A stretch of 64,000 nucleotides of DNA from Rhizophagus irregularis (taxonomy: Eukaryota). Below are positions 3,383 through 62,652 of the stretch, piece after piece. The first letter of the stretch is position 1. Each line of letters opens with the position of its first letter. The DNA lies in the NCBI RefSeq assembly GCF_026210795.1, contig NC_089433.1, positions 248,001 to 312,000 of the forward strand, given 5' to 3'. The translations under genes and the position numbers were made by a program. Below the pieces are notes generated by a model that was not told where the DNA came from, ran no database searches, and was given only the letters and a program-made list of their open reading frames with translations.

Positions 3383-4845
3383 TTATTTTTTAATTACTTG
3401 AAATACTTCATAATCTTCTACTTCAAAATTTTCTGGAATTCCTATCTTTGGATAGTCATCACCATAACCACGATCTTTATTAGACCAATTATTATTATCA
3501 CAGTATATATTACCCATAGTTGGACCGTAATTATAATTACAAAAAACAGCACGATTTTGTTTCTTAACATAACTGACTTTTGAAGTAGAAATATTTTTTC
3601 CATTCGTAGAATTAAAAATAAAGCTATCTGCTGTAGTCTCCCATTGATAACGACTTCCATTCCAATCAAGTGGATTATAACCTCCAATTAATTGTGTTGA
3701 ATTTTTAATTTTTGCTATCCAAATAGTAGCTCCTTTATTATCACAATTTTTATGAAAAGATTTAGTATCAACTCCATCTTGACTTGAGCGATATAATAGC
3801 TTAAAATCGTAAGGAACATTTTTTCTATAATGTGATGAATCTTTTTTATCAATCCACGAAGCAAATAGAGGAATATGATTTGACTCAATCAATGTTGAAT
3901 CTAATCTTTGTTTTCTTGAAGGTGGTAAATTAGTTTTAGGTTTCACATTAGGAACTATATAATATTCCAAAAGATCATGAATTAAATCTTGTGGTAAGAT
4001 GTCTTTGTAACAATAAACTTTGTAAAAGAAATCAGTAGGTTCAATATCATAGAATCGAATTAAAGGAATAAATCTGTATAATTCTCTTTCAATTCTTATA
4101 ATATCATCTTTATTCCATTTTGTTGGATCATTCTGCATATTTTGTTGGGCAAAACACCATTTTAATAAATACTCCCAAATTTCAATGTCATTCATAATTA
4201 AGTCGTCCCTTTTTAATAATAATTCCAATAAAGGAGCTTTTAAATTGATAAAATTTTCAGAACTGAATAAAATTTTAGGTTCTTCACAAATTTTTTCAAG
4301 GCAAAAATTCCATAAATCCGTAAATGTTTCATGTTGATAAATAATTTCAAGAATTCCGGTTGGATTTTGTTGTAAAAATTCAGTTTTATGTTCAATCAAA
4401 AATTCTTGAATGTGGGAAACTAATGAATTGATATTTAGCTCATCCACAGCTACCAATAACTCCAATACATCAGGACCTTGTAAAGTCTTCAATTCAATAT
4501 TTCCACAATAAATGAACCTAACAATATGATTAATAGTTAAATATTTTATAAATTTAGATGATTAATAAATTTATTAAATAACATATCTTACCTAAGAATG
4601 ATATTAAATAATTTTGGTGAAATATTTGATTTTTTAAAAATAAATTTTCCATCTCTTTTCTCAGCCCATTCATTAGAAAATGCAGTACGAAAATATTGAG
4701 ACCTAGCACATAAAACATTTGAATGAGCATGAATTTCTTTAATATTTTGTTCTTCTCCAACATAAATAATAACGTCATATCCAGTTTCTGTTTCAAAAAG
4801 TTTTTCATAATCGCTAGATAACTCTGCCCAAAATTTCGAAGACAT
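3383..4845 (-). CDS. BTB/POZ-BACK-TLDc domain protein (~462 aa, 2 exons)
   Basis: Exon1 4845-4592, intron 4591-4518 (GTAAG...TAG), exon2 4517-3383; spliced frame is continuous. BTB motif YDVIIYVGE...AHSNVLCARSQYF; TLDc motifs LLYRSSQDG, IGGYNPL, EDYEVFQV. Confidence 0.92.
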
Positions 4846-5927: not shown

Positions 5928-7443
5928 ATGTTAACGCAGTTTTTTACTAGATTAAGTGAAAATTATATTGAAATTTTAAATGATGATGAATATTATGATA
6001 TAACAATTGAAGTTGGTAAGGATCCAAATGTAAAAATATTCCGTGCGCACATGATTATCCTGTGTTACCGCTCTCCATTTTTACGACGAACTTTAATTTC
6101 AAATAAAAAGAATAACGATAGTATTTTGACTCATATTAATTTATCAGATATTTCACCTGAAATCTTTCAAATTATTTTAGAGTAAGTCAAATTTATAACT
6201 TTTATTAATAATTTAATATTTTATATTTAATACAATTTTTTTATAACGTAGATATATTTACGGTGGTATAATTTCTTTTAATGAGCAAGAAACTTTAAAA
6301 ATTTTAAATGTATTGGTTGCTGCTGACCAACTTCAACTTCAAGAACTAGTTGATTATTTACAGAAATATTTAATTGAAAATAAAGTTGAATTAATGAAAC
6401 AAAATTTTGGACTTGTTTATCAAACAAGTTTTCAATCTGATTCTTTATTAGATCTTCAACAATTTTGTATAGATTGTATGACTAAACATCCTCAAAAAAT
6501 GTTCAAGTCACTTGATTTTACTTCACTTTCTGAAAAATCTTTGGTTTCACTTATTAAAAGGGATGATTTACAAATGAAAGAAGTTGAAATTTGGGATCAT
6601 GTTTTAAAATGGGGACTTACGCAAAATTCTTCTCTTATTTCAGATCCTGATACTTGGACGGATGATGATTATGAAATGATGAAAAATACTTTACAACTTT
6701 GTTTACCTTTAATTAGATTTTTTAGTTTATCATCTGAAGAATTTTTACAAAAAGTTCATCCATATAAAAAACTTTTGAAACCTCAACTTTATGATGAATT
6801 ATTTAAATCTTATTTGAACCCTAATATTGAACCAAGCAAAGATATACTACTTCCTAGATACAGGAATGTTGATGGAATTATTGATTCAAAAATTGTTAAT
6901 TTAAATATTGTTTCTCTAATTTCAAGGTGGATAGATAAATTGGATATTAAAAGTAAATTTGCTTATGTGAGAGAATTATACTTACCATATAAATTTAAAT
7001 TATTATTAAGAGGAAGTCAAGATGGTTTCACTCCTAAAAAATTTCATGAATTATGTGATAATTTACCTTGTACTGTTATATTTATCAAAGTAAAAGGAAC
7101 GGATGAAATTATTGGAGGATATAATCCTTTGATTTGGAAATGTTTGAATGATGAATATGGTGAAACAAAGGATAGTTTTATATTTTCTTTTAAAAGTAAG
7201 AATAATTTTAAAGATCCAATTTTGAGTCATGTAAATCATGAGAATATAAATAGAGCTATATTTTATCATACTCAATGTGGTCCTACATTTGGTCGTGATC
7301 TTTATATAGGCGTAAAAGGAGTTGATTCAGATGAATATCATCGTAATTATTGTGGAAAATATAGGTATGAAAAAGAGATAAGGAATACAGAAGATGTATT
7401 CTCAATAGAAGACTATGAAGTATTTCAAATTGTAAAAAGTTAA
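5928..7443 (+). CDS. BTB/POZ-BACK-TLDc domain protein (~481 aa, 2 exons)
   Basis: Exon1 5928-6181, intron 6182-6251, exon2 6252-7443. Motifs YYDITIEVG...FRAHMIILCYRSPFL and a TLDc C-terminus. Head-to-head with 3383-4845. Confidence 0.92.
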
Positions 7444-8011: not shown

Positions 8012-8975
8012 TATCAATAGTGAAGAATACAAAATAATTTACGACTGCAGTGTTTCATCATCTTCCCAACGTTTAAGATCCTTCTTGGTTATAAGCTCGC
8101 AAGTGTCCTCCATAACCTCATATATCTTATCTGGGTTGAAAAAAATAGTTCGTGAGACCTTCAATCAAACTAGATCCCATGTACTTCATATTATGTCCCA
8201 TATCGTCCCAACAAAACATGTGACTATGATTATCCAATATCCAGATTGAAAATCCAGCAGAATGATCAATACATACAGCATGAGGATCAATAATACCGAA
8301 TGTTTTAGCAAAATACTTAATATTATCTTCATTCAATAAGTTTGTCAGACCTGACAGATCTTTTTTACTCGTATGAAATGAAATCCAAAGTGATCATTCT
8401 TCAAGAGGGAAAGTAGCGCTGGCAATTTCAACAAGGAGGTACTACATCTCTCGTTCTCACATGAATTAAGTGAACTCTCATTCGGATATCGGACCTCACC
8501 AGAATTAGATACTGTACATCCACGGGTTCACTTCCACACAATTCCCAATGTCCCATTTTTCCAGCTTCTCCTACATACGTAAATCTTGAGAGAAAAGAGA
8601 TCGATTGGTTTTCCACCAATTCTCAATCATCTTTTTTCTGTCTTGATCCTTGGGAACCATGATTGATGCTTCAAACAATGCTTTAATGATCCTGTAATAA
8701 CTTTGGTTCCAGACAAGTTTATCACTGATGGAGATTCTCTGCACTCAAGATGGTCGTCCATAATGTAATTAAATATTTGTATAAAGATTTTCAAAAATAT
8801 TATAAATAAATCTTGTTATAAAAAATCTGGACTAGATGCTTGAAGAGAAAGGTCTGGTCTATTTCCAGAAGAATGCCAAAAATGGGGAAATACCCAAAAA
8901 GAAAGAACTTAATTTTGCTGATAGATTTGGAAAAACTGAAAAATGGTTTGATGCTCAGAATTTTAGAACTTTTTT
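8012..8975 (-). pseudogene. Decayed second copy of the deaminase-like / SUKH-like dual-frame locus
   Basis: Reverse complement aligns with ~17690-18567 (WDIGNCVEVNPW, PPC*NC, IWILDNHSHMFCWDDMGHNMKYMGSSLIEGLTN). Carries frameshifts, stops and a ~60-bp AT-rich insert near 8770-8830. Confidence 0.9.
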
Positions 8976-9606
8976 GATATAATGTGATAAATACAGTATG
9001 TACTATAAATATTTGGGAGCAATAATAAAAATTGATGAAAAATATTGAAATAATATTTATTTGCGTGATTATTTAGTCATGAAAAATTTATTAAGGAGGA
9101 AAAATTGATTTCATAAATATTTGAGAGCAAAAATTGATGAAAAAAAATTGAAATAATATTTATTTTACGAGAGAAAAATATTTTATTCATGAAAAAATTT
9201 TTAAGGAGAAAAAATATTATTTAATCATGAAAAAATTTTTAAGGAGGAAAAAATTTTTTAAGGAGGAATGAGAGAGGAGTATGGTATCGTAATTTATATT
9301 GTATTTATTCACTTGTCACCTAAATTTGTACTAGTTTTTTACTATGAGTTTCATATATACACAATATATATACAGTGATTACATTTATTCTTCTGAAACA
9401 TATAAGTGACCTTCTTATATGTATATGAAATAATTGACGTAATTATTTGGTAATAATTGTTTATTAAACAATAAACGGCTGCGCCATTTTATCAGTACTT
9501 TTCCCAGTACATAGGACACGGAGGAGGTGACACAGCAGAATAATTAGATAAATATGTAACAGCTTAATTTCTCGATTTTACAATTTTTTAAATACTTTAA
9601 TTGTCT

Positions 9607-11597: not shown

Positions 11598-14500
11598 TCA
11601 CGAAAAGAGGTGAGGATTTGTATTAGAAATGTCCGTCAACCTTTGATACTCCAAGATAACATCCTGATCAACCATGAAAGCTGATTTATCAAGGTGAGAT
11701 ATTTCTAAATTATCCCAGGAAGAATATCTACTAAGAGCAACATAAGCTTGACCGGGTGAAAAGATGTTCCCATCCAATGCTAAGCATACCCTTGCTAAGG
11801 TCAAACCCTGGGCTTTGTGAACGGTAAGGGCGAAACAATTTTTGCATACGATTGCAATTGTTTCCATTTATCTTAAAATAATGGGTTTGCTTATAAATGT
11901 CAATGTTGAGATGAAGTCCAACAACTCAGCAGAAACCATGAACGTGATAATCGTGATTTATGAGTGTACAGAGTCTCATTTTGCAAGGTGAGCAAGAAAT
12001 CCGGAAAGAGATGTAAAAATTTTCATGACATGATGCATCAGGTGTTGACTTGAAATCCGATCACTCCTTGCTGGAACATTCAACAGGAGCTGCTGGTAGA
12101 AGTACAATTCACCATCTTCAACCCTAAGAAAACGATGCCTGGTTATTATTTCTTTTGATCGTTTAAAAACATAATTATTCAGATCATCACGGAATGCTTG
12201 ACGAGTGGTAGCAGGTGGCGAAGGTGTGATTAAATACCTCTGAAAGTATTGAAAGTACGTGAGGTTCTCAAACTCCTGGAGGTGAGGACGAGCCATGTAC
12301 TTCATGATTGTATAAGGGTTGTCATCATCATCATCTATCATGTAGACAGGAAGTATCGTACGAGTCCTTGTGGCAGGAGGATCAGTCATGAGAAACTTTA
12401 CGGTAACAGAAGAGCTGCAAATATCGTGACCTAGGAGCAAACACATGAGTTCTATTGATCCAAGGCGACGCGCTATGACATGCTCCCTCAAGAGATCATT
12501 CTCATAGATATTGAATACATGTGATGGTTCTCTTTTCGTAATGTACTTTCCCTATAAAAAAATTGGATACGTTTTTTATAAAGTTTTCATACGATTTTTT
12601 TCCTTAGAAATAACGTATCATAATAAGATACGGAAAAATGCAAAATTCCGTATCACTAAAAATATGGTTTGAATACGGAATTTGCACGGGATTCATATGG
12701 AATTTACATGATTTGATCACTGATTTTATCACGAAATTTATACGATTTGGTCACTGAATTTACTATTTGTATTACAGTTTACTATAATTGTATTTTCATA
12801 AATCTAATTTTACTTTATTAAATTAAATAAAAAATAAAAAATAAACAAAATACAAATATATTATGAAAATTCCCTCCTTATTAAAACCACCTATTGCAAC
12901 CAAAATTATCTATAAGTTCAGGTTCATTTGGAGTCAAATAACCTAAAAAAACAAAAAAAAAAAGAAACATAAGAACGTCTAACTTAATTGGAAACAAAAC
13001 CCCCCCTCATATAGTATCTGCAATCATCCAAGTCACCAAAGGTTAGCATTCCTACAAAAAAAGAAAGAGAACTCCAGAATGTCTGACCTACATAAAAGAA
13101 AAGAATTATGAAGTGTCTGATGAAAAAGAAACCAAAACAACAAAATAAATCCAAAACTGACCTACAAAAAAAGAAGACTCCGAAGCAACAAAACTGTAAT
13201 AACCTATAAAAGAAAAGAATCTGAACCCAACTTACAAAAAAAAAAAGAAAATTTGAACTGACCTAAAAAAAGAAAAAAATCCTGAACCATCCTACAAAAA
13301 GGAAAGGACTCCCAAACTGATCTACAAAAAAGAAAAAAGAAAACTGAATCTTCTCACAAAAAAAATCTGCTGGCCTATGAAATAAAAAAAGGGATAAATA
13401 TAAATATAAATAAAAAAAGAAAAGGGAATAAAGAATAAATCAAAAAAAAATATTTTTTTAAAAAGAGGGGTAACGAAGTTAGGAAAGTTAAAAAAAATTT
13501 TTTTTTAAAGGGAGGACGTCAAAGTTAGAATTTATAAAGAGGAAATAGAAATAGAAAGAAGAAAATTTTAGAAAAAATAACAAAAATAAGACGAGAAAAG
13601 AGAGGAAGATCAAACTCATCAAAGTAAGGGTTTATATAAAAAAACAAAAAACGTATCATAACAAATCAATAAACAATCACGTGATCTCGTGTTATGATAC
13701 GGGATTTTTGTAAAATTATCTTCTAATAATATTGGATACGGAATCTATAGAAACGTACATAGAATGTATATAAAACGTATCCTTTCCGTTTACATATTTC
13801 TTATAGGGTTTGTCATGTATCTGGCGAATCCCTTATCGGTTATGTATTGGACGTTGATATGCGCATCCCAAAGCAAAATGTATCGCAGGGTGGTAAGGTA
13901 CGACCCAAGAATCAGCTTCGGTCAAACACTTATATACGTATCGGGATTCACCTGTAACATAATGGGTTTTTTCGCTATAGGGACGTGGAAAGCCTTTCTT
14001 GCATGTTTGCCCTGGAGGTGCGGGTCCCTGACATTTTGAGCTGCAGGTGTGTATTTGATTCGCCAAAACAGCAGCGTAAAGTTCCAGTTCATAAAGAGAA
14101 TCGAGCATAGTTGATCGTATGACATCATTCGCAATCATTTCATCAATTACCGGAGGTTCATATTTAATCAGACTCACGATAATGGCCGTCGTGGATCTCA
14201 TGCTTTGATTGATGGAATTGGTTTTATTAGAAAGATTTCTAATATTTGGATCGTGATTAACTTCAACCCAAAACTCCTGCTGGGGTTCTCGGTCTCCAAG
14301 GTTTTCCTCGACATAAAACTCCAATGCATAGCTTCCATTAACATTTCTGACAGTTTTGGTAGTGATGCCTGCCAAGATAACACTCAAACCCAATGGAGGC
14401 ATCGTATCAAAGTCTATCCCATCGATCACCTTAATAGAGGTCGCATTGATCTTATTATTTTATCAATCAAATAATAAAGATAATGTTTAGCAATTCAGTA

Positions 14501-17100: not shown

Positions 17101-17154
17101 AATCTTGACTCATCTTTTCTCTTTATGAGTATTACATTGGTTGAGTCAAGATTC
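17101..17154. promoter_or_regulatory. Perfect 12-bp inverted repeat carrying two TGACTCA (AP-1/Gcn4-type) sites
   Basis: AATCTTGACTCA at 17101-17112 and TGAGTCAAGATT at 17143-17154, with TGAGTTA between them. Lies just upstream of a predicted 5'-UTR splice donor at 17190. Confidence 0.5.
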
Positions 17155-17325
17155 ATATATCAGACAGCGAACTAACTAAAAACTTTCAGGTATGTCTTTT
17201 CCCCCAATAAGAAAAGTAGTATGTCTTTCCCCCCAATAAGAAAATCGTGGACTGAAGACTCGGTAACCTTAGTTTTGTTCGTAAAGGAAGAAAGTTCATT
17301 AATAATTTAATTTTTCTCTTTAGAT

Positions 17326-18540
17326 ATGGAAATGTATCGAGAAACTAGCGAATCTCGACAACACGACGCTACAAATTTACAACAAGGTTCTCTTACCGTA
17401 CAAGTATGTCTCAACAAAGTTTATTTTCTTTTTTAGCCAGGTCACGCATAGATATTGATCCTTGATGTTCTTCTACATTAGAAACAATCAAACACTTTTT
17501 CCAAGAAAATCCAAGAACAACAAGCCACTACCAATAATAGTAAAAATCGATGGGACCACAATAGTGATAGGCACAATATGGGACTATTTATATACAGCAA
17601 ACTTCCAGCCAAAATATTTATTCTTATCGCGATTCTCACTTTGTGTGTTCCTTTTTATGGGATTGACTTTTCTCAAAAAAACTTTAAAATTCCGAGCATC
17701 AAACAACCAATTTTCAATTTTTTCAAATATATCAGCAAAATTAAGTTCTTTCCTTTTGGGTATTTCCTCATTTTTAGTGTTGTTCTTTTTGAAAAAAGAC
17801 CGGACCTTTCTCCTCAAGCATCAGAACCAAATTGCATTATGGATGACGATCTTGAGTGCGGGGAAACGATGTCCATCGGTGATAAACGTGTCCTGGAAAC
17901 AAAGTTATTACAAGATCATCAAAGCATCGTTTGGAGCATCAATCACGGCTCCCAAGGATCGGGACAGAAAAGAGATGATCAAGAATCGATGGAGAAACAA
18001 TCGATCTCTTTTCTCCCGAGATTTATGTACGGAGAAGAAGCTGGAAACATGGGACATTGGGAATTGCGCGGAAGTGAACCCGTGGACGCACCTAATTCTG
18101 GTGAGGCCCGATATCCGATTGAGAGCCCACTCAATTTATGTGAAATCGAGAAAAGTAGCACTTCCCTGTCAAAATTGCCAGCTCTACTTTCCCTCTTGAA
18201 GAATGACCGCTTTGGATTTCATATAATTACGAGTAAAAAAGATCTGTCAGATTTGTCAGACTTATTGTACGAAGACAATATTAAGTATTTCGCTAAAACA
18301 TTTGGTATTATTGATCCTCGTGCTGTATGTATTGACCATTCTGGACTTTCCATCTGGATATTGGATAATCATGGTCACATGTTTTGTTGGGACGAGATGG
18401 GACATAATATGGATTACATGGGATCTAGTTTGATTGAAGGTCTCACGAACAATTTTTTCAACCCAGATAAGATATATAGGGTTACGGAGGATACTTGCGA
18501 GCTTAATCGTTGGGTAGATGATGAGACACTGTGGCCATAA
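17326..18540 (+). CDS. Predicted 378-aa protein with C-terminal SUKH-like (immunity-type) domain (frame B)
   Basis: Exon 17326-17403 (MEMYRE...LTVQ, donor GTATGT), 78-nt intron, acceptor TAG 17479-17481, then exon 17482-18540 in frame with the 320-aa ORF. The C-terminal IWILDNHGHMFCWDEMGHNMDYMGSSLIEGLTN resembles the SUKH-3/US22 pattern (by eye). Confidence 0.65.
17465..18199 (+). CDS. Predicted zinc-dependent deaminase-fold protein (YwqJ-like, CAE type), overlapping frame A
   Basis: 244-codon ORF from ATG 17465 with FGASI...WDIGNCAEVNPW (CAE at 18065-18073)...PCQNC (18164-18178), matching the [HC]xE...PCxxC deaminase signature. Confidence 0.7.
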   Translation: MFFYIRNNQTLFPRKSKNNKPLPIIVKIDGTTIVIGTIWDYLYTANFQPKYLFLSRFSLCVFLFMGLTFLKKTLKFRASNNQFSIFSNISAKLSSFLLGISSFLVLFFLKKDRTFLLKHQNQIALWMTILSAGKRCPSVINVSWKQSYYKIIKASFGASITAPKDRDRKEMIKNRWRNNRSLFSRDLCTEKKLETWDIGNCAEVNPWTHLILVRPDIRLRAHSIYVKSRKVALPCQNCQLYFPS

Positions 18541-18592: not shown

Positions 18593-19790
18593 AATTCTTG
18601 AACGTGAGAAATTAACGAATTAATATTTAGTTCTAACAATATGATTAATAGTTAAATATTTTTTACAAATTATATGATAAAATTTATTAAACATTAATAT
18701 TTTACCTAAGAATGATATTAAATGATTTTGGTAAAATATTTGATTTCATTTTCCATCTCTTTTCTCATTAGGAAATGCAGTACGAAAAAATTGAGACCTA
18801 GCACATAAATATTTGAATGAGCACGAATTTCTTTGACATTTTGATCATTAGTATCTGCATAAATAAAACGTCATAATCGTCATATCCTATAGTAAGTCCT
18901 GATTCTCTTTTAAGCTAGCTGGTCAACTCCGCCAAAGTTTTAATTAAAGATAAAGGAAAGGAAATGGTTAATTCTTTGGACATTTTTGTATAAATAGACC
19001 ATTATTTGTACTGAATCTTTTTTACATTGTAGTTTTATTATTGTAAAAAATGGTTGAATTTTTAAAACAGTTACTATTGTTAATTTCTATAACGATAAAA
19101 CATTATCCTAATGGATCCACTTATCTGTTGCTTCTATTTCTTTTTTTTCTTTGGAATAGTGTAATTCTTAAGCAAGTTAATATAGAAACTGTTATCAATT
19201 ACCTTTTTTCGGATTTAATTTCTTTTTTTTTCTGATACGTCATAAATTCTTTATTTTTTTTTTCTCACATTTTTGAATTACAAATTTTTTTTAACTATAT
19301 TATGTTGAAACAGAGGGAAATGATGCAATTCTTGAATCGATATGGAGGCATGAAAATATAGCATTGTATGACGGGCGCAACAAATTAGGAAACTGTTGGA
19401 GAATGAAGGTTTTATTTACATTTTCATAATCGTTGGATAATTATATTTTGAAATCATTTTTTGTTGTAAATGAGAATAGGAAAAAAAAAGAGCAAAAATT
19501 TTAGTTGCAGCCGAAACCTTATTTATATTGTTTTACGTTGATCGTGTTTCCATAAATTTCTATAATGATATTTTCTTCACGCCAATTAAAATTTAAATGA
19601 TCCAGATTATCTAATTCTACCTAAAACCTCAAAGAAACTAACCAAAGTCATTGGAAGTAACTTCAATAAATTAAGTCAAAACTACGCATGTACGGTGCAC
19701 GTTTAGGTCAAAAGCGAATAAATTTTCATTTGTTGATAAAATTTGTCATATTAATGGTTTCATCAACCTTCTAACTCTAGATGTTTGTCA
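18593..19790 (-). pseudogene. Disrupted tandem copy of the 20418-21898 BTB gene 5' part and its promoter
   Basis: 18593-18890 and 19421-19456 match the exon2 start, intron and exon1 of 20418-21898, with deletions and a ~530-bp unrelated insert. 19457-19790 matches its upstream region (~21899-22250). Confidence 0.8.
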
Positions 19791-20417: not shown

Positions 20418-21898
20418 TTACTTTTTAATTACTTGAAATACTTCATAATCTTCTACTTCAAAATTTTTTGGAATTCCTATGCTTGGATAGACTTCTCCAT
20501 AACCACGATCTTCATTAGACCAATTAATATTATTAAGACAGTATATATTACCCATAGTTGGACCGAAATTATACTGACATAAAACAGCACGATCTTGTTT
20601 CTTAACATAACTTACTTTTGAAGTAGAAATATTTCCTCCATTGATAAAATTAAAAATAAAGCTATCTGCTGTAGCCACCCAACGAGGTTGTCTAGTATCC
20701 CAATTAAGTGGATTATACCCTCCTATTAATTGTGTTGAATTTTTAATTTTTGCTATCCAAATAGTAGCTCCTTTATCATCACAATTTTTATGAAAAGAAT
20801 TAGTATCAACTCCATCTTGACTTGAGCGATATAATAACTTAAAATCATAGGGATTATTTTTTCTATTATAATGTGAAGTATCTTTTTTATCAATCCACGA
20901 AGCAAAAAGAGGAAGATGATTCGATTTAATTAAAGTTGAATCGAGTGGATATTTTAAATTTGGCTTTCTTGAAGGTGGTAAATTAACTTTTGATTTTATG
21001 TCAGGAACTATATGATATTCCAAAAGATCATGAATTAAATCTTGTGGTAAGATGTCTTTGTAACAATAAACTTTGTAAAAGAAATCAGTAGGTTCAATAT
21101 CATAGAATCGAATTAATGGAATAAATCTGTATAATTCTCTTTCAATTCTTGTAATATCATCTTTATTCCATTTTGTTGGATCATTCTGCATATTTTGTTG
21201 GGCAAAACACCATTTTAATAAATACTCCCAAATTTCAATTTCATCCATAATTAGGTCATCCCTTTTTAATAATAATTCCAATAAAGGAGCTTTTAAATTA
21301 ATAAAATTTTCAGAACTGAATAAAATTTTAGGTTCTTCACAAATTTTTTCAAGGCAAAAATTCCATAAATCCGTAAATGTTTCATGTTGATAAATAATTT
21401 CAAGAATTCCGGTTGGATTTTGTTGTAAAAATTCGGTTTGATGTTCAATCAAAAATTCTTGAACATGAGAAATTAACGGATTGATATTTAGTTCATCCAC
21501 AGCTATCAATAATTTTAATACTTCAGAGCCTTGTAAATTCTTCAATTCAATATTTCCACAATAAATGAACCTAACAATATGATTAATAGTTAAATATTTT
21601 TTACAAATTTATATGATAAAATTTATTAAACAATAATATCTTACCTAAGAATGATATTAAATAATTGAAGTGAAATATTTGATTTTCTAAAAATAAATTT
21701 TCCATCTCTTTTCTCAGCCCATTCGTTAGAAAATGCAGTACGAAAATATTGAGACCTAGCACATAAAATATTTGAATGAGCATGAATTTCTTTAACATTT
21801 TGATCATCTCCAGCATAAATAATAACGTCATATCCTATTTCTGTTTCAAAAAGTTTTTCATAATCGTTGGATAATTCTGCCCAAAATTTTGAAATCAT
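20418..21898 (-). CDS. BTB/POZ-BACK-TLDc domain protein (~468 aa, 2 exons)
   Basis: Exon1 21898-21645, intron 21644-21571, exon2 21570-20418. Intact frame and family motifs. Confidence 0.92.
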
Positions 21899-26400: not shown

Positions 26401-27871
26401 ATGATTTCAAAATTTTGGGCAGAATTATCCAACGATTATGAGAAATTTTTTGAAACAGAAATAGGATATGACGTTATTATTTATGCAGGAGATGATCAAA
26501 ATGTCAAAGAAATTCATGCTCATTCAAATATTTTATGTGCTAGGTCTCAATATTTTCGTACTGAATTTTCTAACGAATTGGCTGAGAAAAGAGACGGAAA
26601 ATTTATTTTTAGAAAACAAAATATTTCTCCGCAATTATTTAATATCATTCTTAGGTAAGATATTATTGTATTTTATCATATAAATTTGTAAAAATATTTA
26701 AATAATTAATCATGTTATTAGGTTCATTTATTGTGGAAATATTGAATTGAAGAATTTACAAGGCTCTGAAGTATTAAAATTATTGATAGCTGTGGATGAA
26801 CTGAATATCAATTCGTTAATTTCTCATATCCAAGAATTTTTGATTGAACATCAAACCGAATTTTTACAACAAAATCCAACCGGAATTCTTGAAATTATTT
26901 ATCAACATGAAGCATTTACGGATTTATGGAATTTTTGCCTTGAAAAAATTTGTGAAGAACCTAAAATTTTATTCAGTTCTGAAAATTTTATTAATTTAAA
27001 AGCTCCTTTATTGGAATTATTATTAAAAAAGGATGACTTAATTATGGATGAAATTGAAATTTGGGAGTATTTATTAAAATGGTGTTTTGCTCAACAAAAT
27101 ATGCAGAATGATCCAACAAAATGGAATAAAGATGATATTATAAGAGTTGAAAGAGAATTATATAGATTTATTCCTTTAATTCGATTCTATGATATTGAAC
27201 CTACTGATTTTTTTTACAAAGTTTATTGTTACAAAGACATCTTACCACAAGATTTAATTCATGATCTTTTGGAATATCATATAGTTCCTGACATAAAATC
27301 AAAAGTTAATTTACCACCTTCAAGAAAGCCAAATTTAAAATATCCACTTGATTCAACTTTAATTAAATCGAACCATCTTCCTCTTTTTGCTTCGTGGATT
27401 GATAAAAAAGATACTTCACATTATAATAGAAAAAATAATCCCTATGATTTCAAGTTATTATATCGCTCAAGTCAAGATGGATTTGATACTAAATCATTTC
27501 ACAAAAATTGTGACAATAAAGGAGCTACTATTTGGATAGCAAAAATTAAAAATTTAAAACAATTAATTGGAGGGTATAATCCACTTAATTGGAATGAAAG
27601 TCGTTCTTGGTATGCTACAGCAGACAGTTTTATTTTTAATTTTATCAATGGAGGAAATATTTCTACTTCAAAAGTAAGTTATGTTAAGAAACAAGATCAT
27701 GCTGTTTTATGTCAGTCTAATTACGGTCCATCTATGGGTAATATATACTGTCATAATAATAATTGGTCTAATGAAGATCATGGCTATGGCGATAATATCT
27801 ATCCAAACATAGGAATTCCAAAAAATTTTGAAGTAGAAGATTATGAAGTATTTCAAGTAATTAAAAAGTAA
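26401..27871 (+). CDS. BTB/POZ-BACK-TLDc domain protein (~467 aa, 2 exons), inverted duplicate of 20418-21898
   Basis: Exon1 26401-26654, intron 26655-26721, exon2 26722-27871; intact frame. Confidence 0.92.
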
Positions 27872-61167: not shown

Positions 61168-62652
61168 ATGTCTTCAAAATTTTTGGCAGAATTATCTAGC
61201 GACTACGAAAAACTTTTTGAAACTGAAATTGGATATGATGTTATTATTCATGCTGGAGAAGGACAAAATTCGAAGGAAATTCATGCTCATTCAAATATTT
61301 TGTGTATTAGGTCTCAATATTTCCGTTCTGCATTTTCTAATGAATGGGCTGAGAAAAGAGATGGAAAATTTATTTTTAAAAAACCAAATATTTCACCTCA
61401 ATTATTTAATATTATTCTTAGGTATGATAATAATTTTAATAATTTATGATAAATTTTTTTTATTCTCATGATTCAAATCTTTCTAATTGTTATATTTATT
61501 AGGTTCATTTATTGTGGAAATATTGAATTAAAGAATTTACAAGGTCCTGATGTATTGGAGTTGTTGATAGCTGTGGATGAGCTAAATATCAATTCGTTAG
61601 TTTCCCACATTCAAGAATTTTTGATTGAACATAAAACTGAATTTTTACAACAAAATCCAACTGGAATTCTTGAAACAATTTATCAACATGAAACATTTAC
61701 GGATTTATGGAATTTTTGTCTTGAAAAAATTTGTGAAGAACCTAAAATTTTATTCAGCTCTGATAAATTTATTAATTTAAAAGCTCCTTTATTAGAATTA
61801 TTACTAAAAAGAGATGACTTATATATGGATGAAATTGAAATTTGGGAGAATTTATTAAAATGGTGTTTTGCTCAACAAAATATTAAGGTTGATTCAACAA
61901 AATGGAGTAAAGAAGATATTATTAGAGTTGAAAGAGAATTATACAGATTTATTCCTTTAATTCGATTTTATGATATTGAACCTGCAGATTTCTTTTACAA
62001 AGTTTATTGCTACAAAGACGTCTTACCGCAAGATTTAATTCATGATCTTTTGGAATACCACATTGTTCCTAACATAAAACCTAAAACTAATTTACCACCT
62101 TCAAGAAAACCAAATTTAAAGTATCATCTTGATTCAACCTTGATTGAATCAAAACATATTCCTATTTTTGCTTCATGGGTTGAGAGAAAAAATTCTTCAC
62201 ATTATAATATGAAAAATATTCCATATGATTTGAAATTATTATATCGTTCAGATCGGGATGGAACTGACACTAAAACTTTTCATATAAATTGTGACAATAA
62301 AGGAGCTACTATTTGGGTAGCAAAAATTAAAGATTCTACACAAATAATTGGAGGGTATAATCCACTTGATTGGGATGAAGTTTCATATTGGAAAACTACA
62401 GGAGATAGCTTTATTTTTAATTTTACTGATGGAAAAAATATATCTACTTCAAAAGTAAGCTATGTTAATAATCGGGAGTATGCTGTTTTTTGTCATGATA
62501 CTTATGGACCAACCATGGGCAATTTGCACTGCAACCTGAATGGTTGGTCTAATGTTAATCGGGGTGATGGAGATCGTTATCCTAATATAGGAATTCCAGA
62601 AAATAATTTCAAAGTAGAATATTATGAAGTATTTCAAGTAATTAATAAATAA
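61168..62652 (+). CDS. BTB/POZ-BACK-TLDc domain protein (~467 aa, 2 exons)
   Basis: Exon1 61168-61421, intron 61422-61502, exon2 61503-62652; intact frame and family motifs. Confidence 0.92.

What the first reader, a model, noticed from the sequence alone, without database searches (positions are those of the whole stretch)
17190..17481. Possible splice/start-site switch choosing antidote versus toxin frame
Seen: exon 17324-17403 (ATG 17326) spliced in phase 0 to the acceptor at 17481 enters frame B (SUKH-like). The first ATG of frame A (17465) lies inside that 78-nt intron. Two nearer acceptors (17436, 17440) give quick stops just upstream of ATG 17465. The upstream UTR donor region is tandemly duplicated (gtatgtcttt.cccccaataagaaaa at 17190 and 17219). 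Inference: full splicing yields only the immunity-like protein, while intron retention, alternative acceptors or an intronic TSS would permit the deaminase. This loosely parallels S. pombe wtf drivers, whose poison transcript starts in intron 1.
Basis: inference. Interest (0 to 1): 0.7.

Follow-up and report, generated by a model that had tools for sequence, protein, structure and literature searches.

The report
Fungal toxin hidden inside antidote gene
A gene of the root-symbiotic fungus Rhizophagus irregularis holds two long reading frames in the same DNA: the annotated one ends in a predicted antidote-type domain, and the unannotated one encodes a likely nucleic-acid-mutating enzyme, so one ordinary spliced message would make both poison and antidote.

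Summary
The coordinates are right; the proposed switch is in the wrong place. Removing intron 17404-17481 does not remove frame A: it stays open across that junction and through exon 17324-17403, where it is the best-conserved frame in 5 of 5 comparisons. Twelve metagenome loci match both frames; two lack both introns and keep both frames open. Homologs place the intron-1 donor at 17263 and the frame-A start at ATG 17221, inside the duplicated GTATGT unit. The duplicate is therefore the start-codon region of the deaminase, and its first copy makes an overlapping uORF. The nearer acceptors occur in 0 of 4 homologous introns, an open intronic frame-A ATG in 1 of 4. Frame A (279 aa) has a CAE..PCxxC deaminase motif; frame B ends in a SUKH/US22-like fold. 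Best reading: a dual-coding deaminase toxin/SUKH antidote gene read from one mRNA, likely by leaky scanning. A splice switch, if any, would be donor choice in intron 1. No RNA junction was seen, toxicity and binding are untested, and one DNA-like run has a 1-nt deletion that breaks the 17221 start.

The parts
17101..17153 (.). 12-bp perfect inverted repeat whose arms hold TGACTCA-type (bZIP-like, label recalled) sites; likely promoter region
   Evidence: TTACTCA sites lie upstream of the first ATG in L003 and L008, none found in L001, L004, L006, L007
17190..17244 (+). Tandem 26-nt duplication (spacing 29). Each copy holds an ATG (17192, 17221) and begins with a consensus-like donor GTATGT (17190, 17219)
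   Evidence: not duplicated in any of 6 aligned homologs
17192..17239 (+). 15-codon uORF from the first copy, out of frame and overlapping ATG 17221 when donor 17263 is used; in frame with frame A if donor 17219 is used (274 aa)
17221..17262 (+). Likely first 14 codons of frame A (deaminase); ATG aligns with the frame-A ATG of 5 of 6 homologs
   Evidence: run X1 lacks one C at 17229, which breaks this start
17263..17323 (+). Intron 1 (61 nt, G|GTAACC..TTTAG), orthologous to intron 1 of L003, L006, L007, L008, L012 (61-103 nt)
   Evidence: absent at exactly this place from L001 and L004; no RNA junction seen in this species
17324..17403 (+). Exon 2 (80 nt), dual coding: frame B starts at ATG 17326; frame A runs through without a stop
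17404..17481 (+). Intron 2 (78 nt); holds YAGs at 17436, 17440, 17451 and ATG 17465, none conserved
   Evidence: annotation P0001 uses it
17482..18199 (+). Frame A, rest of the unannotated 279-aa deaminase-like protein; GNCAE at 18059-18073, PCQNC at 18164-18178
17482..18540 (+). Frame B, rest of the annotated 378-aa protein; SUKH/US22-like domain at about 18166-18537, starting on top of the deaminase CxxC codons
17643..17777 (+). Possible third intron (135 nt) used in annotation P0013; removal keeps both frames and deletes most of a hydrophobic insert that homologs lack
8012..8988 (-). Second copy, 5'-truncated and frameshifted in both frames (about 84% identical); the source of the RNA reads seen over the coding region

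Best explanation
This locus holds two long overlapping frames on one strand, a likely zinc-dependent nucleic-acid deaminase toxin (frame A, 279 aa) and a protein ending in a predicted SUKH antidote domain (frame B, 378 aa), and both would be translated from the same fully spliced mRNA, likely by leaky scanning between neighbouring start codons. Shown: both frames stay open across both splice junctions here and in homologs; the exon structure and the frame-A ATG are conserved; the motifs and the predicted B fold. Inferred: translation of both frames, deaminase activity, neutralisation by the SUKH domain. In 6 homologs with exon 1 the antidote ATG comes first, mostly in a strong context, so antidote would be in excess. 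In this copy the exon-1 antidote frame is closed by a stop, the antidote starts at 17326, and the second frame-A ATG of homologs is a leucine codon; the duplicated start region adds an overlapping uORF and two GTATGT donors that would each lower toxin output. The long N-terminal part of frame B would mainly serve to bring ribosomes, in frame, through the toxin gene to the SUKH domain, tying antidote to toxin in a eukaryote that has no operons.
For: Frame A is a family: 30 hits at E<=0.001 among 1.84 billion representatives, named members from Ambispora and Rhizophagus. 12 of 16 motif-matched metagenome loci hit both frames by tblastn; they were picked by a frame-A motif only, so frame B is an unselected result. 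In 7 sequences both frames are open over 628-858 nt while the third frame has 14-30 stops; synonymous recoding of B leaves A open in 0-1 of 2000 trials. Window versus L001: in the overlap mismatches fall on A's third position (0.50) more than B's third (0.28), reversed in the B-only part (0.36 vs 0.56; Fisher p=0.0001); L001-L004 p=0.012. Frame A is open over exon 1+2 in 6 of 6 and most conserved in exon 2 in 5 of 5 pairs. The G. cerebriforme frame-B protein can encode both catalytic motifs 35 codons apart and the exon-2 motif in the +1 frame; 0 of 300 shuffles can. Deaminase: all 4 PDB profile hits are cytidine deaminases aligned on CAE and PCxxC, PF00383 in 3 of 19 members, best E 0.0033, atlas lead YwqJ 0.86. 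SUKH: top structural rows RhsPI immunity Z 6.0, SMI1/KNR4 5.8, Syd 5.0; herpesvirus US22-family proteins fill the viral list. YwqJ-clade deaminases are paired with SUKH3 immunity genes in bacteria (PMC3239186 Table 1).
Against: No RNA evidence for this copy: 0 reads at 99% identity or more in 4 raw RNA runs; 26 of 26 checked differences belong to the broken second copy; no splice joint in 4 contig runs. Run X1 lacks one C at 17229, leaving no frame-A product from donor 17263. The codon-position test was not significant in 4 of 6 DNA pairs (p 0.06-0.25) nor on proteins alone (p 0.5). The deaminase call rests on weak scores: PDB E 0.4-0.7, no Pfam hit for the window protein, and the frame-A model (pLDDT 69.5) found no deaminase by fold search. 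SUKH Z-scores are under 8. Six of 12 homologous loci are broken, and L011 and L013 have rearranged or frameshifted 5' ends. No signal peptide or delivery route was tested.
Confidence: 0.55

Rival explanations
1. In this copy a splice switch does choose the product, but at intron 1: donor 17190 removes both frame-A ATGs (antidote only), donor 17219 puts ATG 17192 in frame A (274-aa deaminase first), donor 17263 is the ancestral form.
For: The three outcomes are computed. CAG|GTATGT at 17190 matches the usual fungal donor consensus (recalled) better than TCG|GTAACC. The 17219 route still works in the X1 allele.
Against: No junction was observed. Homologs have no GT before their frame-A ATG, so this cannot be the family's mechanism. 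The duplication looks recent and could be neutral.
Confidence: 0.2
2. The family is dual coding, but this copy's deaminase is silenced or decaying and the gene now works as an antidote-only gene, or not at all.
For: Lost second frame-A ATG, uORF over the first, 1-nt deletion in run X1, a hydrophobic insert absent from homologs, no reads in 4 RNA runs, a pseudogene next door and 6 of 12 broken homologs.
Against: Frame A is open for 279 codons with intact motifs; the CAE motif is encodable in 8 of 8 frame-B proteins tested and the strict PCxNC pattern in 6 of 8; a 9-nt strain indel keeps both frames; the insert may be an intron.
Confidence: 0.15
3. One reading: the deaminase starts at intronic ATG 17465 and needs intron-2 retention, near acceptors or an intronic start site.
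For: ATG 17465 is open into frame A. L006 and protein P0025 also have an in-frame intronic ATG near the acceptor. One 151-nt contig of depth 2 in run X7 spans 17395-17540 unspliced, but the run may be DNA.
Against: Frame-A conservation extends 41 codons upstream of the intron. Near YAGs in 0 of 4 homologous introns; intronic frame-A ATGs are absent or closed by a stop in 3 of 4. Intron 2 is absent from genomic L008. A retained transcript has several upstream ATGs.
Confidence: 0.05
4. The two proteins are not a toxin/antidote pair, or frame A is entered by ribosomal frameshifting from frame B; the deaminase may be a mutator or editor in genome defence with the SUKH domain as a regulator.
For: No binding test could be run. 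Fungal deaminases have been proposed as mutators of selfish elements or heterokaryon-defence factors (PMC3239186, for the OTT_1508 clade). An earlier AI note reports a frameshifted two-frame deaminase in other fungi (unchecked).
Against: Frame A has its own conserved ATGs, so no frameshift is needed. The deaminase-then-SUKH order copies bacterial toxin/immunity pairs.
Confidence: 0.05

Closest known systems
Bacterial polymorphic toxin pair: YwqJ-clade deaminase (PF14431) with SUKH-3 immunity protein
   Same: Gx[CH]xE and CxxC motifs, protein ending just after the CxxC helix, SUKH-type partner encoded directly downstream (PMC3239186 Table 1). B. subtilis YwqJ is an ssDNA cytidine deaminase toxin (bioRxiv 10.64898/2026.09.29.755374, abstract and section 5).
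   Different: Spliced eukaryotic gene; partner frame extended over almost the whole toxin frame; no LXG/RHS delivery domain seen; no PF14431 hit; conserved insert histidine not found.
S. pombe wtf meiotic drivers
   Same: One locus is read as a likely poison and antidote.
   Different: wtf uses two promoters and one reading frame, poison from exons 2-6 and antidote from exons 1-6 (PMC9762604). Here the proteins are unrelated, in different frames, and both fit one mRNA. No drive is shown.
Dual-coding eukaryotic mRNAs such as POLG/POLGARF and XLalphas/ALEX
   Same: Two frames on one mRNA, with leaky scanning (search listing only).
   Different: Overlap here spans about 210-290 codons, survives at about 40% protein identity, and joins two recognisable conflict-system domains.
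SUKH superfamily, US22 (SUKH-5) and SUKH-3 groups
   Same: Predicted alpha+beta domain with a beta-meander; structural neighbours SMI1/KNR4, Syd, US22.
   Different: No Pfam SUKH hit; sits behind about 250 residues that are co-encoded with the deaminase.

Membership tests
Zinc-dependent deaminase superfamily | [HC]xE plus PCxxC zinc/catalytic motifs | tested here: met
   GNCAE and PCQNC; C, E nearly invariant in 19 aligned members; aligned to cytidine deaminases
Zinc-dependent deaminase superfamily | Deaminase fold by structure | tested here: inconclusive
   Model pLDDT 69.5 has hairpin, helix after CAE, strand, CxxC helix, but fold searches were filled by the long helix
Zinc-dependent deaminase superfamily | Deaminase activity | not testable with these tools
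   needs an assay
YwqJ clade | Gx[CH]xE in helix 2; truncation after helix 3 | tested here: met
   GNCAE; ORF ends 6 codons after CxxC
YwqJ clade | Conserved histidine in the strand-2/helix-2 insert | tested here: not met
   insert present, no conserved H in alignment A4
YwqJ clade | Profile match to PF14431 | tested here: inconclusive
   0 of 19 and 0 of 25 members; atlas lead 0.86 to a cluster with PF14431 on 11% of members
SUKH superfamily | SUKH fold | tested here: met
   RhsPI Z 6.0 rmsd 3.6 over 89; SMI1/KNR4 Z 5.8 rmsd 3.8 over 88; Syd Z 5.0 rmsd 4.5 over 90; US22 proteins, best E 0.003; atlas US22 0.90. Scores moderate but concordant
Toxin-antidote pair | Antidote binds and neutralises toxin | not testable with these tools
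wtf-type drivers | Poison and antidote in one frame from alternative promoters | tested here: not met
   different frames, unrelated proteins, both on the spliced mRNA
wtf-type drivers | Biased transmission | not testable with these tools
   no segregation data

The most novel reading that the evidence does not exclude
Arbuscular mycorrhizal fungi carry a widespread, so far unannotated selfish or self/non-self system: a bacterial-type DNA-deaminase toxin and its SUKH immunity protein folded into one spliced mRNA by overprinting the antidote frame across the whole toxin gene, so that the toxin cannot be expressed without its antidote; it acts between nuclei or anastomosing hyphae in the shared cytoplasm, and lineages retune the toxin dose by moving start codons and splice donors.
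Probability: 0.3. Interest if true: 0.9.

Novelty: new variant of a known kind. Interest (0 to 1): 0.75.

Why it matters
Long dual-coding regions are rare in nuclear genes, and this one is conserved across a fungal gene family whose second protein gene finders miss. It shows one way a eukaryote could keep a bacterial toxin/immunity pair coupled without an operon. It also gives named, testable candidates for nuclear competition, vegetative incompatibility or endogenous mutagenesis in the multinucleate fungi that colonise most land plants, an open question with few molecular leads. Both proteins are small enough to test in yeast or E. coli.

Tried and rejected
No whole genome is held, so copy number and genome-wide splice-site strengths could not be measured. 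No listed holder run was on record as RNA. Four raw RNA runs gave reads only from the broken second copy and flanking repeats; whether those strains carry the intact copy is unknown. X1 proved DNA-like (even depth through introns, no joints); X6, X7, X9 gave short pieces of depth 2-3 only. Word-indexed protein searches found nothing for frame A and 2 hits with the profile. The first metagenome scan with frame-B patterns found 0 confirmed of 263. The frame-A motif pattern found 0 matches in viral and 0 in prokaryote genomes, an exact-match test that says little about origin. Four of the 16 motif matches (L002, L014-L016, 48-51% GC) were dropped as chance. Of the 12 homologs, 6 (L003, L006-L010) were left out as broken. 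My first idea, that acceptors 17436/17440 are used by upstream donors to skip exon 2, was dropped: they are not conserved and frame A needs exon 2. The protein-only codon-position test was null. The protein tree did not place the window row with support (16 of 19 rows, 3 short rows left out), so the ancestral order of the two ATGs is not established. The complex prediction could not be run (no verdict). Fold search of frame A found no deaminase; a second look could not be run. In alignments A4/A5 the tool read a first CTG/TTG codon as M, so residue 1 of the frame-B model is not natural. Literature: no description of this locus or architecture in searches (open-licence library only); no supplements were read, and annotation supplements with UTR or CAGE data may bear on the donor choice.

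Full report
Observation. Joining 17403 to 17482 gives a 378-aa protein identical to an annotated Rhizophagus irregularis protein, with 8 cluster members from several strains. Frame A from the intronic ATG 17465 is open for 244 codons and is not in the protein collection. The 26-nt repeat is real.

What the two frames are. Frame A belongs to a family: 30 relatives at E<=0.001, among them named proteins of Ambispora leptoticha, R. diaphanus and R. irregularis, sharing GNC[AS]E and PCxNC. A profile of 19 members hits only cytidine deaminases in the PDB, weakly (4 of 4 hits, E 0.4-0.7, aligned on both motifs), and PF00383 in 3 of 19 members. The motif pattern fits the YwqJ clade as tabulated in PMC3239186 (passages seen), except for the insert histidine. 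The structure search was uninformative. The last 124 residues of frame B fold with pLDDT 77 and match RhsPI immunity, SMI1/KNR4 and Syd (Z 6.0, 5.8, 5.0) and many US22-family proteins, all but the first being founding SUKH members in PMC3113570 (passages). SUKH proteins are the broadest immunity class of polymorphic toxins (PMC3482391, passages).

Dual coding is a family trait. A frame-A motif pattern matched 16 metagenome loci; 12 hit both frames by tblastn and 4 are chance. Their taxa are not given; low GC and the named relatives suggest Glomeromycotina (inference). In the window and 6 loci both frames are open over 628-858 nt, the third frame has 14-30 stops, frame A has 4-14 stops as soon as it ends, and synonymous recoding of B leaves A open in 0-1 of 2000 trials. 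Mismatches shift to A's third codon position in the overlap in the window-L001 (p=0.0001) and L001-L004 (p=0.012) pairs; four other pairs were not significant. The G. cerebriforme frame-B protein, 47% identical, can encode all three frame-A motifs in place (0 of 300 shuffles).

Why the proposed switch fails. Homologous deaminases read straight across intron 2 (motif LLPY[KR] then NN). With exons fixed by alignment, frame A is open over the last 14 codons of exon 1 and all of exon 2 in 6 of 6 sequences, and is the most conserved frame of exon 2 in 5 of 5 pairs (9-14 of 27 residues, against 6-9 for B). L001 and L004 lack both introns at the exact positions, have 51-71 nt before the first ATG and 177-212 nt after the stop, and keep both frames; they look like transcripts, though intron loss is not excluded. 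L008 has intron 1 but no intron 2. Of four homologous second introns none has near acceptors like 17436/17440, and only L006 has an open frame-A ATG.

The 5' end re-read. Alignment puts the donor of intron 1 at 17263, matching GTAA donors of four genomic homologs, and ATG 17221 on the frame-A ATG of 5 of 6 homologs. The model 17221-17262, 17324-17403, 17482-18199 gives 279 aa. In L001, L003, L004, L006, L008 and L012 a frame-B ATG comes first in exon 1, followed by one or two frame-A ATGs. In the window exon-1 frame B has a stop, B starts at 17326, and the second frame-A ATG is a leucine codon. The duplicated unit is thus the deaminase start region. Its first copy gives a 15-codon uORF over ATG 17221; donor 17190 would give antidote only; donor 17219 would give a 274-aa deaminase from ATG 17192. 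Run X1 lacks one C at 17229, which leaves only the 17219 route.

Expression. Not shown. Four raw RNA runs (24-32% of each read) gave no read at 99% identity or more; 26 of 26 checked differences match the broken copy at 8012-8988. Four contig runs gave no splice joint.

Mechanism. Most likely one spliced mRNA yields both proteins by leaky scanning, with antidote in excess; frame B is kept open across the toxin gene so that the SUKH domain is made from the same message. Open frames, exon structure and motifs are shown; translation, enzyme activity, neutralisation and biological target are inferred.

Comparison and novelty. It works like a bacterial YwqJ-type deaminase/SUKH pair (YwqJ is an ssDNA cytidine deaminase toxin: bioRxiv 10.64898/2026.09.29.755374, abstract and section 5) but is not shown to be a YwqJ member. 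It differs from wtf, which uses two promoters and one frame (PMC9762604, passages). Eight searches of the open library found no account of this locus or layout; one Gigaspora preprint mentioned toxin-antitoxins only for the endobacterium (passages). One earlier AI note concerns a different two-frame fungal deaminase (unchecked). Verdict: the splice switch as written is not supported, but the locus is a real, conserved, unannotated dual-coding deaminase/SUKH gene: new variant of a known kind, interest 0.75.

Noticed in passing
window 8012-8988 (-): Broken second copy is transcribed (depth up to about 80 in two runs) while the intact copy has no reads; 18 of its changes sit at the 31 CpG sites, a methylation-decay pattern.
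   Followed up: partly
Allele or assembly error in the window.
   Followed up: partly
L011 exon 2; L013: The exon-2 ATG that starts frame B in the window runs into the deaminase frame in these loci, through an apparent deletion (L011) or frameshift (L013), while frame B stays open for over 350 codons.
   Followed up: partly
L001, L004, L005, L011, L012, L013 at the CxxC codons: Frame B has an ATG (or near-cognate) on top of the deaminase CxxC, at the start of the SUKH domain, like the overlapping start of a bacterial immunity gene; the window has CTG. May be a by-product of frame-A codons.
   Followed up: no
L011 end of frame A: The CxxC helix segment is tandemly duplicated, in both frames.
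   Followed up: no
proteins P0017, P0035, P0037, P0043, P0011: Public gene predictions that switch between the deaminase and SUKH frames, a sign that the family is mis-annotated as chimeras.
   Followed up: partly
window 17172-17189: CTAAC followed by TTTCAG also reads as a branch point and acceptor directly before the first repeat copy.
   Followed up: no
window 3386-4561, 6247-7440, 20421-21608, 26702-27868, 61453-62649: Several BACK/TLDc-type genes surround the locus (two confirmed by Pfam); their upstream repeats match 18593-18800.
   Followed up: partly
window 11979-14459 (-): ORF fragments that look Helitron-like by recall, between the two copies; no Pfam hit at E 0.001.
   Followed up: partly
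ESM Atlas: Unnamed ascomycete clusters (52-102 members) score 0.91-0.92 to frame A; whether they also overlap a SUKH frame is unknown.
   Followed up: no
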